Positions 10,586 to 55,656 of a DNA stretch of 64,000 nucleotides are shown in pieces. This DNA comes from Anaerolineales bacterium. Lineage in GTDB: Bacteria; Chloroflexota; Anaerolineae; Anaerolineales; E44-bin32. Under the pieces are notes generated by a model. It did no database searches, had not been told where the DNA came from, and was given only the letters and a program-made list of their open reading frames with translations. A program made the position numbers and the translations under genes. The stretch is taken from NCBI GenBank assembly GCA_037382465.1, contig JARRPX010000004.1:140204-204203 (forward strand), read 5' to 3'. Every line of letters starts with the position of its first letter. The stretch's first letter is position 1.

Positions 10586-10588
10586 CGG

Positions 10589-11422
10589 CTAAATCCTCAG
10601 ACTCACGTCGAACGCCGGTGCGGAATGCGTAAGTGCGCCGATCGAGATGTAGTCCACACCCGTCGCGGCAACTTCCGCAACGTACGCCAAATCCACGTTG
10701 CCCGATGCTTCCAAAGGCGTACGCCCCGCCGCCAGGCAAACGGCCTCGCGCATCTCTGCCGGGTTCATGTTATCCAGCATGATGCGATCCACATCGAGAG
10801 TCAGCGCCTCGCCCAACTGGTCCATTCGTTCGACTTCGACTTCGATGGGCAAACGCGGGTATGCCGCACGGGCTCGTTCGACGGCTGCAGAGATTCCCCC
10901 GGCGGCAGCGATGTGGTTATCCTTGATCAAAATCATCTCGTGCAGGTTGCTGCGGTGGTTCTGGCCTCCGCCCATACGCACAGCGTACTTCTCCAGCAGT
11001 CGATATCCGGGATGTGTTTTCCGCGTGTCGAGGATGACGGCCTTGCTCCCTTCGACCGCGCGTACGAAGCTCTGTGTATAGGTCGCGATTCCGGAAAGGT
11101 GCTGGATAAAGTTCAATGCGATTCGCTCCGCCGCCAGCAGTTTACTGCCCGGCCCGGAAACCTGCGCGAGCACGCCGCCTTCCAGCACCGCTGCCCCGTC
11201 GCGTGCGTTGGCCTCGAGGTTCAGCGCCGCATCCACGCGTGTAAACACCGCCTGGGCGATGGGCAGGCCTGCGACGATGCCGGCCTGCTTGGCGACGATC
11301 GAGCCTCTTAACGATCCGCTGGGGTCGATCACCGCGTTAGACGTTGCATCCCCTGGGCCGATATCCTCTGCGACAGCCAATTCGATAAGCGGCCGGGCAG
11401 CCTGAATCAAATCATCGTTCAT
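10589..11422 (-). CDS. nadC: Nicotinate-nucleotide diphosphorylase (carboxylating), quinolinate phosphoribosyltransferase
   Basis: 277 aa with QPRTase blocks (DTRKTHPGYR, LIKDNHI, MLDNM). First gene of the nadCAB operon. Confidence 0.9.
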   Translation of the reverse strand: MNDDLIQAARPLIELAVAEDIGPGDATSNAVIDPSGSLRGSIVAKQAGIVAGLPIAQAVFTRVDAALNLEANARDGAAVLEGGVLAQVSGPGSKLLAAERIALNFIQHLSGIATYTQSFVRAVEGSKAVILDTRKTHPGYRLLEKYAVRMGGGQNHRSNLHEMILIKDNHIAAAGGISAAVERARAAYPRLPIEVEVERMDQLGEALTLDVDRIMLDNMNPAEMREAVCLAAGRTPLEASGNVDLAYVAEVAATGVDYISIGALTHSAPAFDVSLRI

Positions 11423-21061: not shown

Positions 21062-21062
21062 G

Positions 21063-34578: not shown

Positions 34579-37395
34579 TTACACGACGATGTTGACCAGC
34601 CGGCCGGGAATGACGATCACCTTTTTCGGCTGCTTGCCTTCCATGAAGCGTTGAACGGTTTCGCTGCTCAACGCCTGCGTTTTCGCATCTTCCTCACTGA
34701 TCCCAGCCGGAACGGTGATGCGTTCGCGCAGCTTGCCGTTGACCTGCACGATCAAAGTGATCTCATCTTCTTTCGCCAGTTCGGGATCGAACTGCGGCCA
34801 CGACTGCAGGTGGATGGAATACGGCTTGCCCAGACGCGCCCACAATTCCTCGGCGATGTGCGGAGTCTCTGGCGCCATTAACAACAGCAGCGCCTCCACG
34901 GCCTTCTTGAAGCCTGGTGTATCTGTCAGTCCGGCGTAATTTACCTCGTAGATGGCGTTGGTCAGTTCCATCAAGGCGGAGATCACCGTGTTGAATTCGA
35001 ATTGCTCCAGGTCACGAGACACCTGTCGGATCGTCTGGTGTACCTTGCGCGTCAGGTCGCGGGTTTGCTCCGGTTTTTCGTCTCCCGTCTCGACGTCCGC
35101 CGTTTCGAGCACCAGCGTCCAAACCCGGTTCAGCCAGCGCACCACGCCCTGGATGTTTTCGGGACTCCAGGGACCGCCCTCCGACCAGCGATATCCGAAC
35201 ATCAGGTAGCCCCGCACGGTGTCCGCGCCATACATCGCCACCTGTTCGTCGGGATCGATCACGTTGCCGCGCGACTTACTCATGCGCTGGCCGTCCGGCC
35301 CCAGGATCTGGCCCTGGTTGCGCAGCTGCAGCATCGGCTCGGGTCCTTCGGTGATACCCATGTCGCGGAGGGCTTTGTGGAAGAAGCGGGTGTAGATGAG
35401 GTGCATGGTGGCATGCTCCATGCCGCCGGTGTAGGTGTCGACCGGCATCCAGTAGTCGTACTCTTTGGGATCGAACGGCGCTTTGTCGTAATGGGGGCTG
35501 AGATAGCGCAGGTGGTACCACGAAGAACACATGAAGGTGTCCATCGTGTCCGTCTCGCGCTCCGCCGGTCCGCCGCATTTCGGGCACTGCGTATTTTTCC
35601 AGGTGGGATGGAATTTCAACGGACTTTCCCCGGTCGGCTTCCACTCCACGTCGTCGGGAAGTTCGATCGGCAGCTGGTCCTCCGGAACGGGAACGATGCC
35701 GCATTTCTCACAGTAGACCATGGGAATCGGCGCGCCCCAGTAGCGCTGCCGCGAGATCAGCCAATCGTGCAGGCGGTAATTCACCGCAGCCTTGCCGACG
35801 CCCTTTTTCTCCAGATAGGCGTTGGTTGTGTCGACGGCGCTTTCACCCGGCGTCCCGCTCAGCGGACCGGAATGGATCATAGTGCCATATTCGGCGTGGT
35901 AGAGTGCGTCCCGGTAATATTCCACACCCCAGAGCATTTCCATGACCGAACGGTTATCCTTCACGTTGGGTTCCAGACTCTTGCAGCGAGCCAGGATCTT
36001 CTCATCTGCTTCGGCGGAATCCCAGGGCATCACTTCGTCGTGGAAGATGAACAGCCACTGGGTTCCCACGATTTCGATCCAGGCGCCGGTTTTAATGTGT
36101 GCTTTTGCGATCTCGATGTAGTTGGCGACCTTTCCGAGCGGTATCTCGATCTGGAACACGCCGTCGCGCTTCTCGAAGGGGATTTTCTCCGCTTCCAGCG
36201 CTTCAGCGAATCCGTCCTTCACGGTTTGCATGAGGGCGACCGATTTGGTCAGCCCGTCCGGACGGTCTATCACCGGGATAATCGGCAGGCCGTATTTCAA
36301 TGCGAATTCGAAATCGCGTTCGTCGTGGGCGGGTACGGCCATGATCGCCCCGGTCCCGTAGGTCATCAGCACGTAATCGGCGATCCAGATCGGAATGCGT
36401 TTCTCGTTCACCGGGTTGATGGCGTAGCCGCCGGTGAAGACGCCCGTCTTCTCCTTATCCAGCGCCTCGCGTTCGATGTCAGCCTGGCGTGCCGCCTGAT
36501 GCACGTAGGCTTTCACTGCCTCCGCCTGAGCTTCCGTGGTGATCTTCTCCACCAGGGGATGCTCCGGCGCCAGCACCATGAAAGTCGCGCCCCAGAGCGT
36601 GTCCGGACGCGTGGTGAACACGGGAATCGGGTCGCCGTCTTCAGTTTGGAAAGTCACGCTTGCGCCTTCGCTGCGACCGATCCAGTTTTCCTGCAGGATG
36701 CGCACGGGATCGGGCCAATCGATGGTCGAGAAGTCGAGCAGCTCATCGGCGTAGTTCGTGATGCGGAAAAACCACTGGTCGAGGTTCTTCTTGATCACCG
36801 GCGTCTTGCAGCGTTCGCAGTGCCGGTCCTCACCCCAGACCTGTTCCCGGGCCAGGGTGGTGTTGCAGTGGGGGCACCAATCCACCGGTGACATTTTCTT
36901 GTAGGCCAGGTCGTTCGCGTACATTTTCAGGAAGAACCACTGCGTCCAACGGTAATATTCCGGGTCGGAGGAAATCGCCTGACGCGACCAATCCCACATC
37001 GCGCCCATACTGCGCAGCTGGCGCTGCATGTTGGCGATGTTCTTGTAAGTCCATTCCTTGGGATGAATGCCGCGTTCGATCGCCGCGTTTTCGGCCGGCA
37101 AACCGAAGGCGTCGAATCCGATGGGGTACATCACATTGAGGCCCTTCATGCGCAGGTAGCGGGCGCGTGCGTCCGAAGGCGTCATGGCGAACCAGTGACC
37201 GATGTGCATGTCGCCCGATGTGTAAGGAAGCATGGTCAGGAAATAGTATTTCTTCTTCTTGGGATCGATTTCCGCTTTGTAAAGCTGATCCGTTTCCCAA
37301 CGCGCCTGCCACTTCGGTTCGATTTCGCCGGGGTCGTACCGCTCGATCCAGGCACGCTCCGGGGTGCGTTCTTGCGCTTCCTTTTTCTTACCCAT
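34579..37395 (-). CDS. leuS: Leucine--tRNA ligase (long form, 938 aa)
   Basis: HIGH-type motif (GDMHIGH), KMSKS (RMSKSRGN), CP1 editing domain (TTRPDTLWGATF), zinc-type CxxC pairs. GGAGGA RBS upstream of ATG 37395. Confidence 0.97.
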   Translation of the reverse strand: MGKKKEAQERTPERAWIERYDPGEIEPKWQARWETDQLYKAEIDPKKKKYYFLTMLPYTSGDMHIGHWFAMTPSDARARYLRMKGLNVMYPIGFDAFGLPAENAAIERGIHPKEWTYKNIANMQRQLRSMGAMWDWSRQAISSDPEYYRWTQWFFLKMYANDLAYKKMSPVDWCPHCNTTLAREQVWGEDRHCERCKTPVIKKNLDQWFFRITNYADELLDFSTIDWPDPVRILQENWIGRSEGASVTFQTEDGDPIPVFTTRPDTLWGATFMVLAPEHPLVEKITTEAQAEAVKAYVHQAARQADIEREALDKEKTGVFTGGYAINPVNEKRIPIWIADYVLMTYGTGAIMAVPAHDERDFEFALKYGLPIIPVIDRPDGLTKSVALMQTVKDGFAEALEAEKIPFEKRDGVFQIEIPLGKVANYIEIAKAHIKTGAWIEIVGTQWLFIFHDEVMPWDSAEADEKILARCKSLEPNVKDNRSVMEMLWGVEYYRDALYHAEYGTMIHSGPLSGTPGESAVDTTNAYLEKKGVGKAAVNYRLHDWLISRQRYWGAPIPMVYCEKCGIVPVPEDQLPIELPDDVEWKPTGESPLKFHPTWKNTQCPKCGGPAERETDTMDTFMCSSWYHLRYLSPHYDKAPFDPKEYDYWMPVDTYTGGMEHATMHLIYTRFFHKALRDMGITEGPEPMLQLRNQGQILGPDGQRMSKSRGNVIDPDEQVAMYGADTVRGYLMFGYRWSEGGPWSPENIQGVVRWLNRVWTLVLETADVETGDEKPEQTRDLTRKVHQTIRQVSRDLEQFEFNTVISALMELTNAIYEVNYAGLTDTPGFKKAVEALLLLMAPETPHIAEELWARLGKPYSIHLQSWPQFDPELAKEDEITLIVQVNGKLRERITVPAGISEEDAKTQALSSETVQRFMEGKQPKKVIVIPGRLVNIVV

Positions 37396-37737: not shown

Positions 37738-37813
37738 TGGTGGACCCAGTGGGATTCGAACCCACGACCTCCTCAATGCCATTGAGGCGCGCTCCCAACT
37801 GCGCCATGGGCCC
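37738..37813 (-). tRNA. tRNA-Ala (anticodon GGC), CCA encoded
   Basis: 76-nt cloverleaf parsed by hand: acceptor GGGCCCA/TGGGTCC with the G3:U70 Ala identity pair, D arm GCGC-AGTTGGGA-GCGC, anticodon arm CCTCA-ATGGCAT-TGAGG, T arm GTGGG-TTCGAAT-CCCAC, and ACCA end. Confidence 0.93.
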
Positions 37814-37818
37814 GGGAG

Positions 37819-37891
37819 TGGACCTGGCGGGATTCGAACCCGCGACCTCATCAGTGCGATTGATGCGCGCTCCCAACTGCGCTACAGGCCC
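37819..37891 (-). tRNA. tRNA-Ala (anticodon CGC), CCA not encoded
   Basis: 73-nt cloverleaf: acceptor GGGCCTG/CAGGTCC with G3:U70, the same D arm, anticodon arm CATCA-ATCGCAC-TGATG, T arm GCGGG-TTCGAAT-CCCGC, discriminator A followed by CTC. A 5-nt spacer separates it from the next tRNA. Confidence 0.9.
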
Positions 37892-42518: not shown

Positions 42519-44594
42519 CTAATCGCTTTCTTCTTTGCCGAGTTCCTTCTGGCGAGCGGCGATGATCTCCTCGGTGATGTGATGGGGGACGACTTCGTAA
42601 TGACTGAGCGATGTGGTGTAATATCCTCGCCCGCCGGTAAACGAACGCAGATCGGTCGTGTAGCGCTGGATTTCCGCCAGGGGAACTTTGGCCGTGACCA
42701 CACTGCGGCCGCGCTCCGTTTCCATCCCCTGGACGCGGGCCCGGCGGGTATTCAAATCTCCCAGCACGTCGCCCATGTTGCTCTCGGGCACGATCACGCG
42801 CACGTCCATGATCGGTTCGAGCAGCACGGGGGCGGCGTCCTTTATCGCCACTTTAAAGGCTTCGCGCCCGGCGATCACGAAGGCCACGGCCTTCGAATCG
42901 ACGGGATGCTCCTTGCCGTCCGTGATTGCCACCTTGACCTTCTCGACCGGATAGCCCGCAAGCACGCCCTGCTTCATCACACCGCGTACGCCCTTTTCGA
43001 TGGCGGGCATGAAACTGGAAGAAATCGCTCCACCGAAGACTTCGTTTACGAATTCGAAGTCTTCGTCCTCCAGGGGTTCGACGCGCATGTGCACTTCGGC
43101 GAACTGGCCGGCGCCGCCCGTCTGTTTCTTGTGACGATACTGTGAAGTGCCCACCTTCGTGATCGTTTCCCGATAGGGCACCTTGGGAATTTCGGTATCC
43201 AGACCGACTTGAAACTTCGATTCCGCCTTACGAATGGCGACGTCGATGTGCTGGTCTCCCATGCCCTGCAGGATGGTTTGATTGGTGCTGGATTCCTGGT
43301 ACCAGGACAGGGTTGGATCTTCTTCGCTCAGACGCGTCAACGTAGGGCTGATCTTGGTCGAATCGGCCTGCGTCTTCGGCGACACGGCGACCGCGTACAA
43401 CGCCGTAGGGTACTCGGGCTGCGGCAGCAGAAGGGGATGCCCTTTATCACCGAGCGTGTCGCCGGTTTCCGTTTCACCCAGCTTCGCCACCGTTCCGATG
43501 TCCCCGGCGTGGAGGCGATCGACGGGAATCTGCTCCTTGCCGCACATGACGTGCAGGCTTCCCAGCCGCTCATCTTCGTCGCGGCTGTGGTTGTACACCT
43601 TGCGATCGCTGTCCAGGAGTCCCGAGTACACCCGCATGTAGGTGAGTTTCCCGACGAAGGGATCGGCCGTCGTCTTCCATACGTAGACCGCCAGCGGTCC
43701 GTTGTCCGACGCCGATAACTCCTCCTCCCCGGAGGTGCCTTTGGCGACCACCGGCGCGACGTCCGCCGGCGAGGGGAACAATTCGATCATCGCTTCCAGC
43801 AGCGGCGCGGTTCCGATGTTTTCGGTTCCGGCAGCGACGAACACGGGCACGAAGCGGCCTGACTGCACGGCGCTGCGAAATCCTTTGGACACATCTTCCG
43901 CACTCAGTTCTGCACCGTCCAGATATTTCTCCAGTAAGGCGTCGTCTCCCTCGGCCGCAGCTTCGACCAGCGACGTGCGCGCCTCTTCGACGCTGTCCGC
44001 ATACTCGGCGGGAATGTCTTGCGCCTTGGTGCCATCTCCGGGGCGCGCCTTCATGCTGAAAAGATCGATCACACCCTCGAAATCCAGTTTTTCACCCAGA
44101 GGAAGTTGGACGGGAATGAAGGTAACATCGCTGGAGAGTTCCTGCACCGCCGCCAACGCCGCCTGGAAATTGGCGTTCTCGCGGTTCATCTTGCTGATCA
44201 CGACGAAGCGCGGCAGCTTGAACGTATCGCAGTAATCCCAGACCAGCTCGGTCCCGACCTCCACACCGGCGACCGAATCGACGACGACCACGGCGCCGTC
44301 CGCCACACGCAGCGCTGAAATGACTTCGCCGATGAAGTCGGTGTATCCGGGCGTGTCCAGTAGATTGACCTTGTTGTCTTTGTATTCAACCGGCAGAATG
44401 GACGTCGAAAGCGAGAGATTACGGCGAATCTCTTCCTCCTCGAAGTCGGAGACGGTATTGCCGTCTTCGACCCTGCCCATGCGGTTGATCACACCGGTCA
44501 GAAACAGCATCGCCTCGCCCAGGGAGGTCTTTCCTGCACCACCATGGGACACTAAGGCAACATTACGTATGAATTCCGTTGCGTATTCTTTCAT
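42519..44594 (-). CDS. Elongation factor G paralogue (EF-G2-like translational GTPase), not in a str operon
   Basis: G domain (HGGAGKTSLGEAMLF, DTPGYTDF, SKMNR) plus domains II-V. The P-loop context differs from canonical AGKTTTTE, and no rpsL/rpsG/tuf neighbours are present. Confidence 0.85.
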   Translation of the reverse strand: MKEYATEFIRNVALVSHGGAGKTSLGEAMLFLTGVINRMGRVEDGNTVSDFEEEEIRRNLSLSTSILPVEYKDNKVNLLDTPGYTDFIGEVISALRVADGAVVVVDSVAGVEVGTELVWDYCDTFKLPRFVVISKMNRENANFQAALAAVQELSSDVTFIPVQLPLGEKLDFEGVIDLFSMKARPGDGTKAQDIPAEYADSVEEARTSLVEAAAEGDDALLEKYLDGAELSAEDVSKGFRSAVQSGRFVPVFVAAGTENIGTAPLLEAMIELFPSPADVAPVVAKGTSGEEELSASDNGPLAVYVWKTTADPFVGKLTYMRVYSGLLDSDRKVYNHSRDEDERLGSLHVMCGKEQIPVDRLHAGDIGTVAKLGETETGDTLGDKGHPLLLPQPEYPTALYAVAVSPKTQADSTKISPTLTRLSEEDPTLSWYQESSTNQTILQGMGDQHIDVAIRKAESKFQVGLDTEIPKVPYRETITKVGTSQYRHKKQTGGAGQFAEVHMRVEPLEDEDFEFVNEVFGGAISSSFMPAIEKGVRGVMKQGVLAGYPVEKVKVAITDGKEHPVDSKAVAFVIAGREAFKVAIKDAAPVLLEPIMDVRVIVPESNMGDVLGDLNTRRARVQGMETERGRSVVTAKVPLAEIQRYTTDLRSFTGGRGYYTTSLSHYEVVPHHITEEIIAARQKELGKEESD

Positions 44595-46747: not shown

Positions 46748-48904
46748 ATGAAACGCTACGAGATAGGCACGAAAGACATGCAGCCAGAGAGCAAACCAGA
46801 GACATCCAACGCGGGCATCCAGACCCTGGAAATCCCCATTCGAGGCATGGACTGCGTCGATTGCACCAGGCACGTCGAGCGGGCCATATCCGATCTCTCC
46901 GGCGTTGAAAGCGTGGAAGTGCTTCTGGGGGCCGAACGCGCCGTCGTTCGCCTGGATCCCGGCCGGGTCGGCATGCCCGACCTGCGCAAGGCCGTCGAAA
47001 AGGCCGGCTACCGCGTTCCCGCTCCGGAAGTCACGACGGCGCAGCGAAATGCAGCGCAGTACGCCCGCCGGATATTGACGCTGCTCTTCGGCGTCTTTGC
47101 CATACTGTTTCTCGTCGTCGTTCTGGGCGAGTGGTTCGGGCTGCTCGAATCAGTCAGCCGCTCGATCCCCTGGCAGCTCGGTCTGGTCGTCATTCTGATC
47201 GGAGGCTATCCGGTCTTCCTCAACGTGCTTCGGGCTACGTGGCGCAGGGAAATCATCGCGCACACGTTGATGACCGTGGGAGTCATCGCCGCCGTCATCG
47301 TCGGGGAATGGGCTACCGCCGCGGTCGTCGTTTTCTTCATGCGCGTCGGGGATTTCGTCGAACGCTACACCTCCGAGCGCGCACGCCATGCGATCCGGGA
47401 CCTTGCCAGTCTGTCCCCCCAGAAAGCGCGTCTCCTGCGCCAGGGAGAAGAAGTGGAAGTGCCGATCGAAGAAGTCAAAGCCGGAGACGTGGTCGTCGTG
47501 CGGCCGGGTGAGAAAATCCCCGTGGACGGGGAAGTCGTCGCCGGCCAGGCGACCGTCAACCAGGCAACCATCACCGGCGAATCGATGCCCGTGGAGGCGC
47601 AAGCCGGCTCCCAGGTTTATGCCGCCACGATCGCCACGTTGGGAAATTTGCGCATACGCGCCCAGCGCATCGGATCCGATTCGACCTTCGGTCGCGTGAT
47701 CAGGCTGGTCGAGACCGCGGAGAGTCAGCGCGGCAGGGTTCAACGCGCTGCGGATCGTTTCTCCAGCTATTTCCTGCCCCTCGTTGCAGGAATCGCTGCG
47801 CTTACTTTCATCATCGGAAGAAACCCCCTGGCCACGGCCGCCGTGCTGGTCGTCGCCTGTTCCTGTTCCTTCGCCCTGGCGACACCGATCGCCATGCTGG
47901 CGTCCATCGGCGCCAGCGCCCGCCGCGGCCTGTTGATCAAAGGCGGCAAACACCTCGAAGCGCTGGCCCGAGCCCAGACCGTACTCATCGATAAAACCGG
48001 AACGCTCACCCTCGGCGAACCAGAGATCACGGACGTCATACCGCTGGGGAAGATCTCTGCGGACAAGCTGCTGAGCCTCGCTGCCAGCGCCGAACGCTAT
48101 TCAGAGCACCCGCTTGCGGAGGCCGTCCGCCTGGCCGCATTCCACCGCGGCTGTGCCGTGCAAGAACCCCAGGACTTCGAAGCTACTCCGGGGATCGGCG
48201 TGCTCGCCCGGATCGATTCCCGGCAGATCGGTGTGGGAAACCGCCGCTCGCTGCCCGATGCCGCCCTGCCCGACTCCTTTCTGGAGAAAGAGAAGCAAGG
48301 CAAGACGCTGCTCGCCGTCACGAGAGACGGCGAACTGATCGGCGCCCTGGCAGCAGCGGACACCGTACGCGATGAGGTGCCGCAGGCGATAAGCCAACTC
48401 AAGCGGCTCGGCATCGATGAGCTCGTTTTGATATCCGGAGACAATGTCCATGCGACGGCCCACCTGGCCGACAGGCTGGGCGTCGATTACCGCGCCGAGC
48501 TGCTTCCCGAGGACAAGATCGAGATCGTCAAGCGCTATCAGGAACAAGGGCGCACAGTCGTCATGGTCGGGGACGGCGTCAACGATGCGCCTTCCCTTGC
48601 ACAAGCCGACGTCGGCATCGCCATGGGTACGGTCGGAAGCGACGTGGCCATCGAAGCCGCCCACGTCGCCCTGCTGCGTGAAGACTGGACGCTCGTCCCA
48701 CTGCTTTTCCGCATCGCCCGGCGGACGATGTCCGTGGTCAAGCTGAACATCGGCTTCACGTTGATCTACAATCTCTTCGGTTTGTCCCTCGCCGCGCTGG
48801 GAATCCTTCCACCCATACTCGCAGCCGCGGCGCAGTCCATCCCCGACCTGGGCATACTGGCCAATTCCTCCCGGCTGCTGCAGCAATCCAAGCTGGACCA
48901 TTGA
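46748..48904 (+). CDS. Heavy-metal-translocating P1B-type ATPase with an atypical CSC membrane motif
   Basis: N-terminal HMA domain (GMDCVDC), DKTGTLT, SEHPLA (HP), GDGVNDAP. The TM motif reads ACSCSFALATP (TGT-TCC-TGT at 47858-47866) where CPC is usual. Confidence 0.9.
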   Translation: MKRYEIGTKDMQPESKPETSNAGIQTLEIPIRGMDCVDCTRHVERAISDLSGVESVEVLLGAERAVVRLDPGRVGMPDLRKAVEKAGYRVPAPEVTTAQRNAAQYARRILTLLFGVFAILFLVVVLGEWFGLLESVSRSIPWQLGLVVILIGGYPVFLNVLRATWRREIIAHTLMTVGVIAAVIVGEWATAAVVVFFMRVGDFVERYTSERARHAIRDLASLSPQKARLLRQGEEVEVPIEEVKAGDVVVVRPGEKIPVDGEVVAGQATVNQATITGESMPVEAQAGSQVYAATIATLGNLRIRAQRIGSDSTFGRVIRLVETAESQRGRVQRAADRFSSYFLPLVAGIAALTFIIGRNPLATAAVLVVACSCSFALATPIAMLASIGASARRGLLIKGGKHLEALARAQTVLIDKTGTLTLGEPEITDVIPLGKISADKLLSLAASAERYSEHPLAEAVRLAAFHRGCAVQEPQDFEATPGIGVLARIDSRQIGVGNRRSLPDAALPDSFLEKEKQGKTLLAVTRDGELIGALAAADTVRDEVPQAISQLKRLGIDELVLISGDNVHATAHLADRLGVDYRAELLPEDKIEIVKRYQEQGRTVVMVGDGVNDAPSLAQADVGIAMGTVGSDVAIEAAHVALLREDWTLVPLLFRIARRTMSVVKLNIGFTLIYNLFGLSLAALGILPPILAAAAQSIPDLGILANSSRLLQQSKLDH

Positions 48905-50826: not shown

Positions 50827-51093
50827 CTAAATCTGCTCGAAATGTTCGGTGTCCAGGATGAAAATCGTCGCTCGCCTTCGTTCGGCTGCCTGCGGCTCGG
50901 AACGTACTTCTCGGATCACCGCGATGGCTTCATCCACCCTTTCGGGCTGCAGACCGGTGAGCAGCGTCGTGTTGCCCCGCCGCAGAAAACCACCCGTCGA
51001 TGCCACTCGCGTGACGCGGAACTCCTTTTCGATGAGCGCATCGACCGCTCGATCTGCGTCCTTATCGTCCAGGATCACAATCATTAATTTCAC
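50827..51093 (-). CDS. darA: PII-like cyclic-di-AMP receptor DarA/YaaQ family protein, short (loop-deleted) form
   Basis: MKLMIVILDDKDADRAVDALIEKEFRVTRVASTGGFLRRGNTTLLTG...ATIFILDTEHFEQI is colinear with my recollection of Bacillus DarA (MKLIVAVVQD...[20 protein letters not shown]...GGATVFVLPVDEFHQF) but lacks about 20 residues of the long loop. The ATG lies 1 nt after the antiporter stop. Confidence 0.7.
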   Translation of the reverse strand: MKLMIVILDDKDADRAVDALIEKEFRVTRVASTGGFLRRGNTTLLTGLQPERVDEAIAVIREVRSEPQAAERRRATIFILDTEHFEQI

Positions 51094-51094
51094 T

Positions 51095-52984
51095 CTAGAT
51101 CACCTCACACTGCTCGACGTCGAAGACGAAAACCGTAGCCCCGCGCAGTTCGATCTGCTTCGGTTTTCCCAACCGACCGGGCAGGTTATCCACGGGTGCC
51201 GACAGATATTCCACGCTGCCGCGGGTGGCTTCCCGCAGCACACGGATCGTGCTTTCCAGTTCACCATCCGGGATGCCCACGATCAGCAGATGATTCGTTC
51301 GGCGAAGGAATCCACCGTCGCTGCGAACCCGTGTGGTGAGCACGCCCCGCGCCCTGAGTGCGTTGGTCGCCGATTCGAGATCCCTTTCCTGGATCACGAC
51401 CATGAGTAGTTGGCAGACTTCCTGATGCAGATAGCTCTGTTGGGCATAATCGGTCCAGGCTTCGACGCTCGAATCCAGGGCTTCGTCGACCTCGGCGAGC
51501 AGGCTATCGTAGGTCAAATCCGATATGATTCCATCCCTGCGTAGGGTTGCCAACGTGCCGCGCTGCGCCCGCAGCATCTCGCGGCGTGCGTTGATCAACT
51601 CCTGTTCTTCGAGATCCGGTGTTGCACGGAGGATCTCTTGAACCGCCGAAGTCAGGTTTTTGACGCGATGCTCAAGCACGGGCTGCAGATGTTCCCAGGT
51701 GTGCTCCGAGATCAACCCATTCTTGCTCAGCTTTTGAATGCGCTCATACCCCGCACGTTCGGCGAGTGCTCTGGCCTGTCGGCGTTCGTATTCAATCTGG
51801 CCTTCGTTGCGCTCGATCACCTTCAAGCGCGCCAAAACCCGGTCCATGGAGAAGCCCTGCACGATGATGCTGAAGAGCACGACGCCGAAGGTCATGGTGA
51901 TGATGAGATCCCGCGAGTCGCCCAGGGTCAACGGTAAACTGAGCGCCAGAGCCAGCGAAATCGCGCCCCGCAAACCTCCCCAAAAAAGCACGTGCCGCCA
52001 ACGAGTCTCCATCCTGCTGATCAGCCTGGAGAAGAAGTAAACCACAAACGCTCGGCTCAGAAGTACGGCGGCGATGGCCCACAGAATCGGCTTCCAGTTT
52101 TCCAGCAGCTGCGTCAGGTTGGTTTGCAGGCCGATCAGGAGAAACACGGCCGAATTGGCTGCGAAGGCAGCATATTCCCAGAAGTTGAAAACCACGATCT
52201 TCGTCGTGGGCGACATCCCCTGGGGTCCGACGTTGCCGCTCACGATGCCGGCCGCCACGACGGCCAGCACGCCGCTGAAGTGGAGCAGGTCTTCGGCCAC
52301 AAAAAACGAACCAAAAGCGACCAGGGTTGTGAGGGTTGTCTCGACGAGATGATCGTCGATCAACGAGGTGGCGCGTGCGAACAGCCATCCAAAGAGCAAG
52401 CCGATGATCAAGCCTCCGCCTGCAACGCGGATGAAGGAGGTCACACCCTCTGCGAGGTCGAAACTCCCCGCAGCGACCGCTGCCAGCGCAAGATTGAACA
52501 TCACGATGGCCGTGCCGTCGTTCAGCAGGCTTTCGCCCTCCAGCAAGACTTCCAACCGTTTCGGTGCGCCAAGTTTGCGGAATATACCCACGACTGCCAC
52601 CGGATCGGTCGCGGCGATGAGGGAGCCGAAAACGATAGCGATGGGTAAAACCAATCCGTCTCCCCAATGAATGACGAATCCGACAAACAGCATATTGAGG
52701 ATGACGCCGGGGACGGCCATGAACACGATCGTTCCGAGATTTTGACGCAGGCGTTCGAAATTCAAGTGGAACGCTGCTTCAAACAACAACGGCGGCAAGA
52801 ACAGGGAAAGAAAAACTCTCGGTGAAATTTCCATCGAGAGATCCGAGCGCAAACCGATGATCAGGCCGGCGATAACCAGCCCTACCGTGTACGGAATGCG
52901 AAAACGGCGTCCAATGATGGCCACGACGGACGCCACCAGGAAAATCATCAAGATGAGCAGTTCGAGTTCGAGATTGGTATCCAT
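51095..52984 (-). CDS. CPA1-family (NhaP-type) cation/proton antiporter fused to a C-terminal DarA/YaaQ-like PII domain
   Basis: About 400 aa of Na_H_Exchanger-type TM helices (ATDPVAV, LEGESLLNDG), a helical cytoplasmic linker, then residues 524-629 (nt 51098-51415): LLMVVIQERDLESATNALRARGVLTTRVRSDGGFLRRTNHLLIVG...GATVFVFDVEQCEVI, homologous to the downstream DarA-like gene. Confidence 0.85.
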   Translation of the reverse strand: MDTNLELELLILMIFLVASVVAIIGRRFRIPYTVGLVIAGLIIGLRSDLSMEISPRVFLSLFLPPLLFEAAFHLNFERLRQNLGTIVFMAVPGVILNMLFVGFVIHWGDGLVLPIAIVFGSLIAATDPVAVVGIFRKLGAPKRLEVLLEGESLLNDGTAIVMFNLALAAVAAGSFDLAEGVTSFIRVAGGGLIIGLLFGWLFARATSLIDDHLVETTLTTLVAFGSFFVAEDLLHFSGVLAVVAAGIVSGNVGPQGMSPTTKIVVFNFWEYAAFAANSAVFLLIGLQTNLTQLLENWKPILWAIAAVLLSRAFVVYFFSRLISRMETRWRHVLFWGGLRGAISLALALSLPLTLGDSRDLIITMTFGVVLFSIIVQGFSMDRVLARLKVIERNEGQIEYERRQARALAERAGYERIQKLSKNGLISEHTWEHLQPVLEHRVKNLTSAVQEILRATPDLEEQELINARREMLRAQRGTLATLRRDGIISDLTYDSLLAEVDEALDSSVEAWTDYAQQSYLHQEVCQLLMVVIQERDLESATNALRARGVLTTRVRSDGGFLRRTNHLLIVGIPDGELESTIRVLREATRGSVEYLSAPVDNLPGRLGKPKQIELRGATVFVFDVEQCEVI

Positions 52985-53060
52985 CGAAGCAACTTTTATC
53001 CTATTACAAACTTAACCGACATTTCAATTATATCCGCAGATACCGGTGGGAGTGGGAAAG

Positions 53061-55451
53061 CTAATCTTGCTCGACGAATTGAGGTTCATCCCCTTCGATT
53101 TTGATGCTTTGGCCGTTCGGAAAAGTAACCCGCGTGTACGCCGTGAAACATTCCAGTTTCAACCCGCGCCAGCGAACGACGACCGGCCGGGGAAACGGAT
53201 TGGACGGACGCAGCCATACTTTATGAGGTGAGATCAAGCGTACCCCCAGCGTATCCAGGAAAAGACTGACGGGAAACACTCCCCATTGATGGTGCCGGTC
53301 CCCAAAACCTTCCGCCTGTTCCGCGTGATACGATTCGCGAAACGCCTTATCCGCCTTAAGGCTTTGGACGACGCTGGCCATCAACCGCTCGACCAAGACT
53401 GCCGCTTCCCGCCGGTAACCATACGCTACAAGGCCCTCGCCCAGCAGTGTGTTCCAAAAAAACCAGACGCCGCCAGCTCCCTCGGCCGGGCTTTGTTCAT
53501 ACGCCTTGTCCTTTGCGGAACAGGATGGAATGCCATACGGCCTCCAGAATCTTTCTTCGTCCATCAACGCTTTTCGCACCAATTGATCTGCCCGGTCGGA
53601 TGTGGGAATGCCGGCCCATAGCGGCAGGAGCAGCGTTTGATCCTGACGGGTGAAATCCGCCACGCGCAGTTCAGTCTCGAATTCCTTGCTCAAACCTGCG
53701 ACTTCGATTCGCTCGATCTCCGTGTACTGTTTCTGACTGGTCGCCGTTCCAAACTCCCAGAACCATTGGAAATCTCGTTCGGTCAGTTTCTCGATCCGTT
53801 TCCGCCCACTGCGACCGCGTCCATGGATGAATATCCTCACGGCGTGCGACAATCCCTCCTCTCCGATCGACCGCACGAGGACGCGCACTGCAGGGTCGAA
53901 CGGACGTTCGACTTGCAGGTCGAACGAACCCTTCCTTCTTCCGAGCCGCAGGCCACGAGGCGAAACGTGAAGATCACGATCCATATGGTGATAGACGGAT
54001 TCTTTCTCCGCCCAGGCAATATCGAGCGAGTCCTGGAGGTGCGACATGCGCATTTCGATCTCGGGAACGAGCTCCGCTCGATCCAACAGCTCGGCCATAT
54101 CCCGCAGCGCCTGACACTCACGGTACAGGTAGGAAGCCAGATCGGGGGTTTCTGCCAGGGAAATATCCACACCCTGCCCCCACCGCCGCCATCGGACGAA
54201 CGAGGGGATATCGTCGAACGCCGACTGCGTCGTGTTGGTCCATTCCGGATGGCCGTCGCCGTCGCGGTCATGATCCGATTCGAACCACACGTCCACGAAA
54301 GCCAGCAAAGGAACGAAGACCCCTTCCAGGAAGGCCCGGTCTTCTGTATGCAGGAAGGTCTTCCAGGCCAACGTCGCCAGGAGCGGAAGCGCCAGCATCC
54401 CGTTCCGCTGTCCCGCCAATCCCGGACTCCAATCGATACCCCCTTCCACTCGCCCGGCGGCGGTGAAATTCTCGATCATTCCTGCTGCCAGTTGCGGCGC
54501 AACAGGCAGCACTTGCAGTAAATTCGTATACGTCAGTGCCACAGACGCTCCGGCCCAATGCACATGAACGTCCGATCCGTCGCCGCGCGGCGAATAGCCG
54601 CGGTCCGGCCGGCGTGTCTGGACCAGTGATGCATTCGGCAGGTGCCGCGTCGGGCCGACGTAGCCCATCAGGGCATCTTTTTGCGCGAACGCCAATGCAG
54701 CATCCCAATCCTCGTCACCCGTTTCGATATCGACGATGGATGCGGCGGTCATTTCCAGCCTGGCGATTTCTGCGTCCCAGGATTTCGCTGCGAGTTCCCG
54801 TGCAACTTCGAAGGATTGCGCATGGTTTCCATACGCAGCATGGACCCAAAGCCAGCTCTTCTGCTCCCCAGGAACAAGCCGAGTGGAGACGGTCAGGGAG
54901 GGAAATGTCGTTTGTTCGCGGACCGCACCGCCCGAAAGAAATACCACGGGTTCTATCGAAGCCGTTCGTCCCGACAATATAGTGACGCCCTGAATCAGCT
55001 GCTCATCCATCACCTGCGGATTCTCACCCGGCTGCAGTAAGGCGTGCAGACGAAGCTCCGCTCTGCGAACATCGACTCCCCGATTGTAATACGTGAAGCG
55101 GCCGGCCAGGCACTTCGAGTCGGGAACCCAGTATTCGGCTTCCACTTCCAGATCCTCGAAAGGCGAACAAGTGACGCGTATGTAATTCGGCAGGAAGGCG
55201 CGTACGACCGTGGGCGCGTAAAAATGATCGGGGTGGACGACCGCTGATTCCCCCCAACGAAAACCGGGGAAAATCCGCATGCTACGAGCGCGCAACCCAT
55301 ACGTGGTCTGAATCGACAGCGCCGGCGGATCACCCCCAATCAACGCCAGCTCCCAGATTTGATCGTCCAGGTAATCCGGTGTTGTCAGACGCGCATCTGC
55401 AGCGATACACAACGATAGAGGTCCCTCTCGGGGAATCGACCATTCACGCAT
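53061..55451 (-). CDS. (alpha/alpha)6-barrel glycoside-hydrolase-like protein (GH63/GH37/debranching-enzyme-like)
   Basis: The C-terminal blocks FWRPYGIPS and GGVWFFWNTLLGEGLVAYGY are typical of six-hairpin glycosidases. The ORF is open to 55643, but ATG 55451 sits 7 nt after a TTTACC-17-TACAAT promoter-like element, so it may be leaderless. Family call is by eye. Confidence 0.55.
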   Translation of the reverse strand: MREWSIPREGPLSLCIAADARLTTPDYLDDQIWELALIGGDPPALSIQTTYGLRARSMRIFPGFRWGESAVVHPDHFYAPTVVRAFLPNYIRVTCSPFEDLEVEAEYWVPDSKCLAGRFTYYNRGVDVRRAELRLHALLQPGENPQVMDEQLIQGVTILSGRTASIEPVVFLSGGAVREQTTFPSLTVSTRLVPGEQKSWLWVHAAYGNHAQSFEVARELAAKSWDAEIARLEMTAASIVDIETGDEDWDAALAFAQKDALMGYVGPTRHLPNASLVQTRRPDRGYSPRGDGSDVHVHWAGASVALTYTNLLQVLPVAPQLAAGMIENFTAAGRVEGGIDWSPGLAGQRNGMLALPLLATLAWKTFLHTEDRAFLEGVFVPLLAFVDVWFESDHDRDGDGHPEWTNTTQSAFDDIPSFVRWRRWGQGVDISLAETPDLASYLYRECQALRDMAELLDRAELVPEIEMRMSHLQDSLDIAWAEKESVYHHMDRDLHVSPRGLRLGRRKGSFDLQVERPFDPAVRVLVRSIGEEGLSHAVRIFIHGRGRSGRKRIEKLTERDFQWFWEFGTATSQKQYTEIERIEVAGLSKEFETELRVADFTRQDQTLLLPLWAGIPTSDRADQLVRKALMDEERFWRPYGIPSCSAKDKAYEQSPAEGAGGVWFFWNTLLGEGLVAYGYRREAAVLVERLMASVVQSLKADKAFRESYHAEQAEGFGDRHHQWGVFPVSLFLDTLGVRLISPHKVWLRPSNPFPRPVVVRWRGLKLECFTAYTRVTFPNGQSIKIEGDEPQFVEQD

Positions 55452-55656
55452 GAAACGAATTGTAAGAAGAGAGTGCGCAAAGGTAAAGCGTATTCGATTC
55501 GCAGATTCGAAGCGCTTTCCCCAAATTCCCGGATAATCCCGGGCTGCTGCCGCACATGTTCGGGCACTCGATTCTACCCATCGGGCATCATAAAGCCCCT
55601 TCGACGTTCTGATGATCGGGCGTATTCCGGGTTTGTTCCTCATCCCCTTCGATTCA

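What the first reader, a model, noticed from the sequence alone, without database searches (positions are those of the whole stretch)
50827..52984. NhaP/CPA1 antiporter fused to a DarA (YaaQ) PII-like c-di-AMP receptor domain, followed 1 nt later by a loop-deleted stand-alone DarA paralogue
The last 106 residues of the 629-aa antiporter (nt 51098-51415) are clearly homologous to the downstream 88-aa gene. Shared blocks include GGFLRR.N.LL..G and GATVFVFD / ATIFILD, with the ending E.xE.I. Both are colinear with my recollection of Bacillus DarA/YaaQ.

As established knowledge, DarA/PstA proteins are PII-like trimeric c-di-AMP receptors whose output target is still poorly defined. c-di-AMP is known to control K+ and cation transporters through other domains, such as RCK_C in KtrA/CpaA/KhtT.

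A covalent DarA-antiporter fusion is a Rosetta-stone hint that a DarA-type domain can gate a CPA1 transporter. The fused copy keeps the long loop (YLSAPVDNLPGRLGKPKQIELRG). The free copy has it replaced by a short Arg-rich stretch (SEPQAAERRR), which suggests a hetero-oligomeric or regulatory division of labour. The stop and start codons are separated by a single nucleotide.
Basis: partly seen in the sequence, partly recalled or inferred. Interest (0 to 1): 0.65.

Follow-up and report, generated by a model that had tools for sequence, protein, structure and literature searches.

The report
Antiporter with built-in c-di-AMP sensor pair
A salt-marsh Anaerolineales bacterium encodes a cation/proton antiporter fused to a DarA-type c-di-AMP sensor domain, always followed by a small loop-less copy of that sensor, which gives a testable idea of what these long-mysterious sensors control.

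Summary
A 629-aa CPA1 antiporter (51095-52984, minus strand) ends in a PF06153 (PstA/DarA, c-di-AMP receptor) domain. One nucleotide later an 88-aa PF06153 paralogue starts (50827-51093); it lacks the long B-loop.

It is not a one-off. The 120 closest protein clusters (119 carry both domains) and about 50 Chloroflexota species genomes carry the fusion. In 41 loci the short gene starts between -4 and +2 nt of the fusion's stop codon. The residues shown by mutagenesis to bind c-di-AMP in PstA are near-invariant in both copies. The short copy has a fixed loop of about 11 residues and Arg-Arg in place of the Gly-Gly hinge.

The long + short pairing also occurs as two free adjacent genes, and as a covalent long-short tandem protein (94 clusters). 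That argues the two paralogues work together.

Best reading: a c-di-AMP-gated K+(Na+)/H+ exporter whose sensor is built from fused long-loop and free short-loop subunits.

Not shown: ligand binding, stoichiometry, direction of control, or a diadenylate cyclase in this genome (none in the 64-kb window). I found no paper describing this architecture. DarA/PstA partners were still called unknown in 2025; a 2026 preprint proposes GlnR.

The parts
51095..52984 (-). CPA1 (NhaP-type, TIGR00831) cation/proton antiporter fused to a DarA-like domain, 629 aa
   Evidence: ORF. PF00999 + PF06153. TIGR00831 348 bits > cutoff 279.6. 119 of the 120 closest clusters have the same two-domain architecture.
51833..52939 (-). 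Transport (Na_H_Exchanger) domain, aa 16-384
   Evidence: Pfam. AF2 model matches NHE1, SOS1 and PaNhaP cores at TMt about 0.8. Ion-site and transport residues E69, T126-D127-P128, S152, N155-D156, R311, R339 are invariant or nearly so in 64 homologues.
51437..51805 (-). Cytoplasmic helical stalk, aa 394-516 (five helices), linking TM13 to the sensor domain
   Evidence: AF2 secondary structure. The sequence match to SOS1/NHX7 runs through aa 507. TIGR00831 covers aa 10-501.
51098..51415 (-). Fused long-loop DarA/PstA-like (PF06153) domain, aa 524-629
   Evidence: 53 bits against a gathering score of 27. Aligns end to end with PstA/DarA structures 3m05, 4d3h, 4rle, 4rww. Beta-alpha-beta-beta-alpha-beta fold in AF2.
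51305..51316 (-). T-loop GGFL (aa 557-560) of the fused domain: phosphate and adenine contacts in PstA
   Evidence: Equivalent to LmPstA 34-GGFL-37 (PMC4475381). G166/G147/F140/L160 of 167 fused domains. GGFL-to-AAAA abolishes binding in SaPstA (PMC4316997).
51140..51226 (-). Long B-loop (aa 587-615) of the fused domain, the presumed output element
   Evidence: Disordered in AF2 (pLDDT < 50 at 596-613), as in PstA. Loop length 29 in 137 of 167 fused domains. The B-loop re-orients on ligand binding in PstA (PMC4475381, PMC12435418).
51091..51106 (-). Coupling junction: SD-like GAGGTGA (51100-51106), TAG stop (51095-51097), 1-nt spacer (51094), GTG start (51091-51093)
   Evidence: Sequence. Spacing of -4/0/+1/+2 nt in 8/1/11/21 of 41 related loci.
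50827..51093 (-). Free short-loop DarA paralogue, 88 aa
   Evidence: PF06153 85 bits over profile positions 1-63. 1598 relatives, the top 120 all 84-97 aa. T28 48/49, GGFL, N41 42/49, G47, A96-T97-x-F99 conserved.
50872..50904 (-). Replacement mini-loop (aa 64-74, RSEPQAAERRR) ending in the conserved Arg-Arg that replaces the PstA Gly94-Gly95 hinge
   Evidence: Loop of 10-11 residues in 47 of 49 short copies. R at position 94 in 39/49 and at position 95 in 38/49.
53061..55643 (-). Upstream MGH1-like (mannosylglycerate-hydrolase-like) glycoside hydrolase, 860 aa; possible third member of the unit
   Evidence: PF22422. Upstream on the same strand in 39 related loci down to about 40% identity and. 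Absent in L075/L076, where the fusion + short pair persists.
52998..53027 (-). Sigma-70-like promoter match in the 76-nt gap before the antiporter (weak evidence)
   Evidence: Consensus scan, 9 of 12 matches. Not evidence of function.

Best explanation
This is a second-messenger-gated cation exporter. The 629-aa protein is an electroneutral CPA1 (NhaP/SOS1-like) K+(Na+)/H+ antiporter. Like all solved CPA1 proteins it should be a homodimer. Its TM13 continues into a helical stalk and then into a PstA/DarA-type PII-like domain that keeps the long flexible B-loop. The translationally coupled 88-aa gene supplies a second kind of subunit. It keeps the nucleotide pocket, but the output loop is replaced by a short Arg-rich turn. 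I propose that the fused (long) and free (short) subunits assemble into one mixed PII-like sensor under the transporter, and that c-di-AMP binds in the clefts between subunits, as in PstA. Ligand binding would then re-orient the B-loops, which only the transporter-tethered subunits have, against the stalk or the transport helices and so change activity. The likely direction is relief of autoinhibition, that is, export switched on when c-di-AMP is high (cation excess or osmotic downshift). This parallels c-di-AMP activation of the K+ exporters CpaA and KhtT in Firmicutes. Shown here: the architecture, its conservation, the coupling, conservation of the ligand-contact residues, an intact transport site, and recurrence of the long+short pairing in three genetic formats. 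Inferred: the ligand identity, hetero-oligomerisation, the stoichiometry, and the sign of regulation.
For: Architecture and family assignments. Conservation: 119 of the 120 closest clusters have PF00999+PF06153, and about 50 Chloroflexota species genomes carry the fusion. Coupling: 41 loci at -4..+2 nt, with an SD inside the upstream gene's 3' end. Less biased check: four short-class proteins chosen from a protein search sat in eight places; all but L078 lie right after a full-length fusion, including L075/L076 where the surrounding genes differ completely. Ligand pocket: T28, GGFL, N41, G47, A96, T97 and F99 are near-invariant in 167 fused and 49 short domains. T28A, N41A, F36A and GGFL-AAAA impair c-di-AMP binding in PstA, while a B-loop deletion (delta 71-87) still binds in lysates (PMC4316997, PMC4475381). 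Long+short as a unit: free long (fused-class) plus short pairs in L037, L040, L067 and L078; covalent long-short tandems in at least 27 representative clusters and 94 clusters at 90% identity, always in the order long then short. Transport site intact. AF2 fold and nearest structures are SLC9C1 and SOS1, dimeric CPA1 proteins gated by C-terminal cytosolic domains; the bacterial CPA1 YcgO is likewise a homodimer inhibited through cytosolic domains that touch the transport helices (bioRxiv 10.64898/2026.08.14.744764). c-di-AMP stimulates cation/proton exporters CpaA and KhtT (PMC10636490). Habitat is marine sediment and salt marsh. Exact-match fragments occur in a rhizosphere metatranscriptome.
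Against: No binding, transport or interaction data exist. No diadenylate cyclase, phosphodiesterase or c-di-AMP riboswitch lies in the 64-kb window or in about 1.2 Mb of related loci, although that is a tiny share of each genome. Both copies score well below the DarA equivalog cutoff, and the Gly-Gly hinge that contacts phosphate through its backbone is R-G in the fused copy and R-R in the short copy, so ligand specificity could have shifted. PII-like proteins are trimers while CPA1 proteins are dimers, so the assembly is not obvious. The covalent tandems imply 1:1, which fits no simple single trimer. Tandem genes have no transporter neighbour, so the long/short pair is not transporter-specific. 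Part of the synteny may be plain vertical inheritance within one order. The sign of regulation rests on analogy only.
Confidence: 0.6

Rival explanations
1. The same architecture, but the sensor pair reads a different ligand (for example ATP/ADP, cAMP or another cyclic (di)nucleotide) rather than c-di-AMP. The module would then couple cation export to energy or another signal.
For: Both copies are far below the NCBIfam DarA equivalog cutoff (56-79 bits against 140). The phosphate-contacting Gly94-Gly95 hinge is replaced by [HRK]-G in the fused copies and R-R in the short copies. LmPstA His108 has no conserved His counterpart: the position aligned with the terminal His of the LmPstA chain is Glu in most copies. 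No cyclase was seen in the DNA available. Other PII-like proteins such as SbtB bind several adenine nucleotides (PMC8654305, PMC9974498).
Against: All side-chain contacts that define c-di-AMP recognition in PstA (T28, F36 in GGFL, N41, T97, F99) and the short T-loop that makes room for the second nucleotide are conserved (PMC4475381). PstA lacks the Walker-A-like B-loop and the C-loop that canonical PII uses for ATP, and so do these copies. Arg26, present in SaPstA and BsDarA, is kept in 40 of 49 short copies.
Confidence: 0.15
2. The 88-aa protein is an independent soluble receptor that arose by tandem duplication. It is merely co-expressed with the antiporter, forms its own homotrimer and acts on other targets. 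The fused domain works alone.
For: The engineered loop-less PstA still binds ligand (PMC4316997), so a loop-less homotrimer could be a ligand buffer or sink. Tandem long-short proteins and the L067 pair occur without an antiporter. Part of the neighbourhood synteny is simple vertical inheritance.
Against: Coupling at -4..+2 nt is maintained across 41 loci down to about 40-50% identity. The pair survives a complete change of neighbourhood (L075/L076). The short class was found only next to a long-class partner, or fused behind one, in every context examined. Repeated covalent long-short fusion in a fixed order is the classic signature of physical partnership. A subunit lacking the only known output loop has no obvious way to signal alone.
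Confidence: 0.15
3. The C-terminal PF06153 domain is a structural or oligomerisation appendage, or an evolutionary relic, with no ligand-dependent regulatory role.
For: No functional data. AF2 confidence for the domain is only moderate (pLDDT 50-77 over aa 520-629).
Against: Ligand-pocket residues that play no structural role (T28, N41, F36) are near-invariant over 167 sequences. The domain is retained at full length in essentially all family members. Cytosolic C-terminal domains regulate every well-studied CPA1 that has one (SOS1, SLC9C1, NHE1/3, YcgO; bioRxiv 10.64898/2026.08.14.744764).
Confidence: 0.05

Closest known systems
PstA / DarA (YaaQ), PF06153, the PII-like c-di-AMP receptors of Firmicutes (PDB 4d3h, 4wk1, 4rww, 4rle, 3m05)
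   Same: Same Pfam family above the gathering score. Same beta-alpha-beta-beta-alpha-beta fold. Same short GGFL T-loop and same ligand-contact residues. The fused copy keeps a long disordered B-loop.
   Different: Known members are free homotrimeric proteins of about 109 aa, one gene per genome. Here one copy is welded to a membrane transporter and a second, loop-less class (about 88 aa, R-R hinge) always accompanies it. Both fall below the DarA equivalog cutoff. The lineage is Chloroflexota, not Firmicutes.
CpaA and KhtT/KhtU: c-di-AMP-activated cation/proton antiporters of S. aureus and B. subtilis
   Same: The proposed logic is the same: c-di-AMP acts directly on a cytosolic domain of a monovalent cation/proton antiporter to control K+ export (PMC10636490, PMC11067040).
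   Different: Those are CPA2 systems that sense c-di-AMP through dimeric RCK_C (TrkA_C) domains. This is a CPA1 protein with no RCK_C hit and a PII-like sensor instead, so it is an unrelated receptor fold on a different antiporter family.
GlnK-AmtB and SbtB-SbtA: PII or PII-like proteins that plug their cognate transporters
   Same: A PII-superfamily sensor, encoded next to a transporter gene, controls that transporter through a long flexible loop in a ligand-dependent way (PMC4475381 discussion; bioRxiv 10.1101/2023.08.10.552651; PMC9974498).
   Different: Those are non-covalent, symmetry-matched complexes (trimer on trimer) that use the T-loop. Here the sensor is covalently fused, the transporter family is dimeric, the long loop is the B-loop, and two sensor paralogues are involved.
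SOS1/NHX7, SLC9C1, NHE1/NHE3 and E. coli YcgO: CPA1 exchangers with C-terminal cytosolic regulatory domains
   Same: Closest structural and sequence relatives of the transporter plus stalk. All are homodimers in which cytosolic helical and ligand-binding domains auto-inhibit or gate the transport domain; SLC9C1 uses a cyclic-nucleotide-binding domain.
   Different: Their sensors are CNBD, CHP-binding or RCK+CorC modules. None uses a PII-like domain or a separately encoded partner subunit of the same fold.
B. subtilis NhaK (cation/proton antiporter) and the c-di-AMP-null suppressor network
   Same: The gain-of-function allele NhaK S187F (increased K+ export) rescues cells lacking c-di-AMP. Loss of DarA also helps such cells. 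So a cation/proton antiporter and DarA fall in one genetic network (PMC7857571, PMC10636490).
   Different: No physical or regulatory DarA-NhaK link has been reported. NhaK has no PF06153 domain. I did not compare NhaK with this protein, so the connection is a lead raised by this fusion, not a finding.

Membership tests
CPA1 monovalent cation:proton antiporter (PF00999; TIGR00831 a_cpa1) | Profile match above the curated thresholds | tested here: met
   PF00999 254.6 bits (gathering score 26.2). TIGR00831 348.1 bits (cutoff 279.6).
CPA1 monovalent cation:proton antiporter (PF00999; TIGR00831 a_cpa1) | Electroneutral 'ND' motif, the unwound-helix T-D-P motif, and conserved Glu, Ser and Arg of the NhaP ion site | tested here: met
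   N155-D156, T126-D127-P128, S152, E69, R311 and R339 are invariant or nearly so in 64 homologues. The mapping onto PaNhaP T129/D130/S155/D159/E73 is from my own knowledge.
CPA1 monovalent cation:proton antiporter (PF00999; TIGR00831 a_cpa1) | NhaP/NHE 13-TM fold | tested here: met
   The AF2 model matches NHE1, SOS1 and PaNhaP cores at TMt 0.77-0.81, rmsd 3.2-3.8.
CPA1 monovalent cation:proton antiporter (PF00999; TIGR00831 a_cpa1) | Homodimeric assembly; measured cation/H+ exchange and ion selectivity | not testable with these tools
   Every structural neighbour is a dimer (YcgO preprint). No multimer modelling or assay was available.
PstA/DarA c-di-AMP receptor (PF06153 CdAMP_rec) | Pfam profile match above the gathering score | tested here: met
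   Fused tail 53 bits, short copy 85 bits, gathering score 27.
PstA/DarA c-di-AMP receptor (PF06153 CdAMP_rec) | NCBIfam DarA equivalog (NF058593) cutoff of 140 bits, i.e. orthology to DarA | tested here: not met
   56-61 bits (fused) and 79 bits (short). These are family members, not DarA equivalogs.
PstA/DarA c-di-AMP receptor (PF06153 CdAMP_rec) | c-di-AMP contact residues: T28, 34-GGFL-37, N41, G47, T97, F99 | tested here: met
   Present in both window copies and near-invariant in 167 fused and 49 short domains. Their roles come from PMC4475381 and PMC4316997.
PstA/DarA c-di-AMP receptor (PF06153 CdAMP_rec) | 94-GGA-96 hinge and long (about 30-residue) B-loop | tested here: inconclusive
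   Fused copy: loop of 29 residues, hinge R-G-A (partly kept). Short copy: loop of 11 residues, hinge R-R-A (not kept). An engineered loop deletion in SaPstA still bound ligand in lysates (PMC4316997).
PstA/DarA c-di-AMP receptor (PF06153 CdAMP_rec) | PII-like ferredoxin fold | tested here: met
   The AF2 fused domain has the E-H-E-E-H-E order. The AF2 tandem relative matches PstA/DarA chains at TMt 0.78-0.90. The 88-aa protein itself was not folded.
PstA/DarA c-di-AMP receptor (PF06153 CdAMP_rec) | Homotrimer with three inter-subunit ligand sites; measured c-di-AMP binding | not testable with these tools
   Single-chain AF2 only, and no coordinates were returned. Needs multimer modelling, SEC-MALS or native MS, and DRaCALA or ITC.
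c-di-AMP signalling system in the host | A diadenylate cyclase (DAC, PF02457) encoded in the same genome | tested here: inconclusive
   No DGA...G[TS]RHR motif in the window or in about 1.2 Mb of related loci. No DAC or phosphodiesterase among about 45 window proteins scanned. No c-di-AMP riboswitch. The window is only about 2% of a 3.4-Mb genome such as CP070708.1.
RCK_C-type c-di-AMP-regulated antiporters (CpaA, KhtTU) | An RCK_C/TrkA_C domain as the c-di-AMP sensor | tested here: not met
   No TrkA_C/RCK hit at E <= 1 in the 629-aa protein. It works like these systems but is not a member.

The most novel reading that the evidence does not exclude
DarA-type receptors come as an obligate two-paralogue machine. 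A 'long' subunit carries the output loop and a 'short' loop-less subunit completes the ligand clefts. In the antiporter, the two tethered long domains of the CPA1 dimer plus one free short subunit would form an asymmetric 2:1 PII-like heterotrimer. That would solve the dimer-versus-trimer symmetry mismatch and would be the first hard-wired heteromeric PII-superfamily sensor on a transporter. By extension, CPA1 antiporters of the NhaK type would be a physiological target of free DarA/PstA in Firmicutes, which would explain why apo-DarA is toxic in cells lacking c-di-AMP.
Probability: 0.2. Interest if true: 0.85.

Novelty: new variant of a known kind. Interest (0 to 1): 0.66.

Why it matters
[quoted passage not shown] PstA/DarA is one of its most conserved receptors. 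Yet after more than ten years its partner "has escaped its identification" in three model species (PMC10636490), and only a weak GlnR interaction was proposed in 2026 (PMC13484208).

A conserved natural fusion puts a DarA-type domain on a specific output, a CPA1 cation/proton antiporter, in the pathway where c-di-AMP is already known to act. That gives a concrete, cheap hypothesis to test in Chloroflexota and, as DarA-NhaK, in Firmicutes.

The work also turns up a second, loop-less DarA class that always travels with a long-loop partner, whether fused to the antiporter, free, or joined as a tandem. This suggests heteromeric PII-like sensors, which I did not find described.

It also adds a new sensor fold to the set of cytosolic domains that gate CPA1/NHE-type exchangers (CNBD, CHP, RCK/CorC).

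Tried and rejected
1. I first read the L040 cluster as a 'split' version of the fusion (exchanger + 120-aa ORF + long + short). This was rejected. The 421-aa exchanger has no meaningful BLAST similarity to the fusion's transport domain, and the 120-aa ORF is not the stalk. It is a different Na_H_Exchanger lineage next to a long+short pair.

2. Diadenylate cyclase: motif scans of the window and all loci and Pfam annotation of about 45 window proteins found none. This is inconclusive because the sample is too small.

3. An Rfam gathering-threshold scan of the window found two tRNAs and no ydaO/c-di-AMP riboswitch.

4. I folded a covalent tandem as a proxy for the long-short interface. The model is confident (pLDDT 85, pTM 0.79). 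However, no coordinates are returned, and Foldseek found only single-domain PstA matches, so the interdomain geometry could not be judged.

5. Expression: one rhizosphere metatranscriptome has exact-match fragments over the hydrolase, the antiporter and the 3' end of the short gene. They are too sparse to show co-transcription, and DNA carry-over cannot be excluded.

6. Taxonomy of the tandem family: no source names it. Its contexts show no conserved transporter neighbour.

7. Literature searches for any description of a DarA/PF06153-antiporter fusion found nothing. The library covers open-access papers only, and the architecture is visible in precomputed Pfam annotations.

8. The look-up of P0315 returned no record.


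Full report
**What is in the sequence**

A 629-aa ORF runs 51095..52984 on the minus strand, and an 88-aa ORF with a GTG start runs 50827..51093. The junction reads ...GAG GTG ATC TAG A GTG AAA.... That gives a TAG stop, one spacer base, then the GTG start. A GAGGTGA Shine-Dalgarno-like motif sits inside the last codons of the antiporter, six bases upstream of the start.

Pfam places Na_H_Exchanger (PF00999) at aa 16-384 (E 1.8e-75) and CdAMP_rec (PF06153) at aa 525-626. The tail scores 53 bits on its own against a gathering score of 27. The 88-aa protein scores 85 bits but matches only the first 63 of 109 profile positions. NCBIfam calls the transporter a TIGR00831 'a_cpa1' Na+/H+ antiporter, above its cutoff. 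Both DarA-like pieces score 56-79 bits on the DarA equivalog model, whose cutoff is 140. They are therefore members of the PstA/DarA family but not DarA orthologues.

The tail and the 88-aa protein are 31% identical (E 1e-15), with a single 18-residue gap. Residue-level alignments to the solved PstA/DarA structures show that the gap is the 'B-loop', residues 65-94 of L. monocytogenes PstA.

**It is a conserved family, not a curiosity of one contig**

The 120 closest protein clusters, down to about 54% identity, are almost all 613-636 aa, and 119 of them carry PF00999+PF06153. Two shorter entries (511 and 434 aa) look truncated. Where a source names them they are plain 'Na+/H+ antiporter' from Anaerolineae, Anaerolineales or Chloroflexi MAGs.

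I then scanned one genome per species with an alignment of the stalk plus sensor region. This gave 71 loci. About 50 are full fusions, mostly Anaerolineales or Anaerolineaceae, and one is Candidatus Aquidulcis, class Limnocylindria. The other 19 are ordinary stand-alone DarA-like genes of about 109 aa, in other Chloroflexota and one Halanaerobiales record.

The organism behind the window occurs in marine-sediment, salt-marsh and rhizosphere metagenomes. The rest of the window is ordinary chromosome: a class-I (Trp/Tyr-type) tRNA synthetase, NadA-C, GltBD, LeuRS, EF-G, PBP1, PlsY and two tRNAs.

**The short gene is an obligate companion**

In 41 loci where both genes are cleanly readable, the short gene starts at -4 (8 loci), 0 (1), +1 (11) or +2 nt (21) from the fusion's stop codon.

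That sample was seeded with the fusion, so I also started from the other side. The look-ups returned eight places. All but one lie directly downstream of a full-length CPA1-DarA fusion. In one of them (L073) the fusion gene had not been called, but it is intact. The exception, L078, has a TM-less remnant of the fusion and is described below.

In L075/L076 the surrounding genes are entirely different, yet the fusion + short pair is intact. The pair is therefore the conserved core and not a by-product of regional synteny.

The short class is large: 1598 relatives, and the top 120 are all 84-97 aa. Some sources already label it 'cyclic-di-AMP receptor' or 'YaaQ'.

**Ligand pocket**

The PstA structure and mutagenesis papers define the c-di-AMP contacts as follows (PMC4475381, PMC4316997):
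- Thr28.
- The short 34-GGFL-37 T-loop, with Phe36 stacking on adenine.
- Asn41.
- Gly47, through its backbone.
- Thr97 and Phe99 from the neighbouring subunit.
- The backbone of Gly94.
- His108.

T28A, N41A, F36A and GGFL-to-AAAA impair binding. An engineered B-loop deletion (delta 71-87) still binds in lysates.

I aligned 167 fused domains, 49 short copies and 21 long free copies to the references. T28 is kept in 165/167 fused and 48/49 short copies, and N41 in 159/167 and 42/49. G34, G35, F36, L37, G47, A96, T97 and F99 are near-invariant in both classes.

The classes differ in three ways:
- Loop length is 29 residues in fused copies, 10-11 in short copies and 32 in the references.
- The Gly94-Gly95 hinge becomes [H/R/K]-Gly in fused copies and Arg-Arg in short copies (39 and 38 of 49).
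- Arg26 is kept mainly in the short class.

So the short protein is a distinct class under selection. It keeps the pocket and has lost the only element thought to contact partners. It is not a decaying duplicate.

**The long + short pairing recurs in three genetic formats**

(i) Long domain fused to the antiporter, with the short gene coupled behind it. This is the window and most loci.

(ii) Both free. L037 has the fusion, then a free long copy, then a short copy. L040 has a long + short pair 3.4 kb from the fusion, behind a different Na_H_Exchanger gene and a 120-aa ORF with no Pfam hit. L067 has a long + short pair next to DUF5698/DUF2179 and DUF389 membrane proteins. L078 has a 172-aa remnant (stalk tail plus long domain, no TM region) followed by the short copy. 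Class-specific HMMs put these free long copies in the fused class, not the canonical DarA class (for example 113-116 against 76-81 bits in L040 and L037).

(iii) Covalent tandems. A search of 1.8 billion representative proteins with the fused domain found 654 relatives. Many are 210-260 aa proteins with two PF06153 domains. Their order is always long-loop domain, linker, shortened-loop domain. The C-terminal halves score higher on the short-class than the fused-class profile in 27 of 27, and the N-terminal halves never score best on the short-class profile. The tandem family has 94 clusters. Its genes stand alone with no conserved transporter neighbour.

Fusion of two paralogues in a fixed order, plus obligate adjacency when unfused, is the classic genomic signature of proteins that work as one complex. 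It also shows that the long/short system is more general than the antiporter.

**The transporter**

The CPA1 transport residues are invariant or nearly so across 64 homologues: T126-D127-P128, S152, N155-D156, E69, R311 and R339.

An AF2 model built on that alignment (pLDDT 75, pTM 0.60) shows three parts:
- The NhaP-type membrane core.
- A five-helix cytoplasmic stalk (aa 394-516).
- A beta-alpha-beta-beta-alpha-beta domain whose long loop (aa 587-615) is disordered, as in PstA.

The best sequence and fold matches are SOS1/NHX7 and the sperm exchanger SLC9C1, followed by NHE1/3/9 and PaNhaP. All of these are homodimers, and those with C-terminal cytosolic domains are auto-inhibited or gated through them. 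A 2026 preprint shows the same logic for the bacterial CPA1 K+/H+ antiporter YcgO, which has RCK + CorC domains (10.64898/2026.08.14.744764). There is no RCK_C domain here, so this is not the CpaA/KhtT type of c-di-AMP control.

**Mechanism I commit to (confidence about 0.6)**

This is a c-di-AMP-gated K+(Na+)/H+ exporter. The dimeric antiporter holds two long-loop sensor domains on helical stalks, and the coupled gene supplies loop-less subunits that co-assemble with them. c-di-AMP binds at inter-subunit clefts. The resulting re-orientation of the B-loops, which only the tethered subunits have, alters contacts with the stalk or transport helices.

I favour activation by ligand, meaning relief of autoinhibition, for two reasons. 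c-di-AMP stimulates K+ exporters and inhibits importers in Firmicutes. And apo-DarA/PstA is thought to be the partner-binding, growth-inhibiting form (PMC10636490, PMC7857571, PMC12802241).

Steps shown: the architecture, its conservation, the coupling, pocket conservation, transport-site integrity, and recurrent long/short pairing. Steps inferred: the ligand, hetero-oligomerisation, stoichiometry and sign of regulation.

Stoichiometry is open. A heterotrimer of two long and one short subunit would neatly reconcile a dimeric transporter with a trimeric sensor fold. But the covalent tandems and the translational coupling point to 1:1, which needs some other assembly.

**Rivals**

- A different ligand (0.15). 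The altered hinge, the sub-equivalog scores and the lack of a visible cyclase allow it. The conserved c-di-AMP-specific contacts argue against it.
- An independent soluble short receptor (0.15). The coupling, the pair's survival through a neighbourhood change and the tandem fusions all argue against it.
- A non-regulatory appendage (0.05).

**What could not be settled**

- No diadenylate cyclase, phosphodiesterase or c-di-AMP riboswitch is in the window or in about 1.2 Mb of related loci. This is not informative about whole genomes.
- Multimer modelling was not available, and the tandem model's interdomain geometry could not be read.
- RNA evidence is limited to sparse exact-match fragments in one metatranscriptome.

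**Comparison with what is known, and novelty**

c-di-AMP control of cation/proton antiporters is known for CpaA and KhtTU, through RCK_C domains. PII-type control of transporters is known for GlnK-AmtB and SbtB-SbtA. C-terminal domain gating of CPA1 is known for SOS1, SLC9C1, NHE and YcgO.

What I did not find described is a PstA/DarA-type domain as the sensor of a CPA1, together with a dedicated loop-less partner class. The proteins themselves sit in public databases with both Pfam domains precomputed. I therefore rate this a new variant of a known kind.

It matters because the output of DarA/PstA has been an acknowledged open question (PMC10636490). Partners were still called unknown in December 2025 (PMC12802241), and the first claimed target, GlnR, is a weak and transient interaction in a July 2026 preprint (PMC13484208). 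In B. subtilis, a gain-of-function allele of the cation/proton antiporter NhaK and loss of DarA both help cells that lack c-di-AMP (PMC7857571). The fusion suggests a direct DarA-antiporter link that can be tested with standard assays.

Noticed in passing
window 53061-55643 (-); also L001-L052 upstream of the fusion: An 860-aa MGH1-like glycoside hydrolase (PF22422, the mannosylglycerate hydrolase family, which acts on a compatible solute) sits directly upstream on the same strand. It holds that position in 39 related loci down to about 40% identity, although L075/L076 lack it. If co-transcribed, the unit would pair osmolyte breakdown with cation export, a coherent response to osmotic downshift.
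   Followed up: partly
L040 10509-12744: A tightly packed second cluster in Anaerolineales UBA5797: a different Na_H_Exchanger (421 aa, unrelated by BLAST to the fusion), a 120-aa ORF with no Pfam hit that looks beta-alpha-beta (possibly PII-like), a free long-loop DarA, and a short-loop DarA. A CBS-pair protein and a CitMHS transporter lie just upstream. This is an independent association of the DarA pair with a cation/proton antiporter.
   Followed up: partly
L067 7974-10621: A free long + short DarA pair in an Anaerolinea sp. MAG, directly followed by a DUF5698+DUF2179 membrane protein and a DUF389 membrane protein. Separately, two tandem-family relatives (P0482, P0485) carry PF06153 fused to DUF2179 (PF10035). 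DarA-like modules may therefore also serve that membrane-protein family.
   Followed up: no
proteins P0137-P0269, P0402-P0486 (no window coordinates); contexts L072, L081, L082: A family of about 220-260-aa covalent tandem DarA proteins (long-loop domain, low-complexity linker, shortened-loop domain). It has 94 clusters, all from metagenomes or MAGs with no taxon name, and the genes are monocistronic in varied contexts. AF2 gives pLDDT 85 and pTM 0.79 for P0149. I found no description of it.
   Followed up: partly
protein P0263 (300 aa): A PolyA_pol-type nucleotidyltransferase head domain (PF01743) fused to a C-terminal CdAMP_rec domain, which is another uncharacterised DarA fusion.
   Followed up: no
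window 51413-51415 (Cys524) and 51107-51109 (Cys626), minus strand: Cys524 (start of beta-1 of the fused domain) and Cys626 (fourth residue from the C-terminus) co-occur perfectly: C...C in 31 of 64 homologues and every C524 paired with C626, against X...Tyr in most of the others. The pattern may reflect a packing pair, a redox-sensitive disulphide (compare the redox R-loop of SbtB), or just two clades.
   Followed up: partly
L078 2074-2861: A natural TM-less variant. The hydrolase gene is followed by a 172-aa protein consisting of the last part of the stalk plus the long DarA domain (matching aa 466-627 of the fusion), and then by the short copy. The contig is short (3 kb), so an assembly artefact cannot be excluded.
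   Followed up: partly
L045, L046, L048, L051: In several long-read (MFD) MAGs the fusion and short genes appear frameshifted or merged into odd ORFs. These look like sequencing indels rather than biology, so I left them out of the spacing statistics.
   Followed up: no
window 37741-37891 (-): Two adjacent tRNA genes are the only Rfam hits in the window. The window otherwise holds housekeeping genes: GltB/GltD at 16544-22535, NadA/NadB/NadC at 7947-11422, LeuRS at 34579-37395, EF-G at 42519-44594, and a heavy-metal P-type ATPase at 46748-48904.
   Followed up: no
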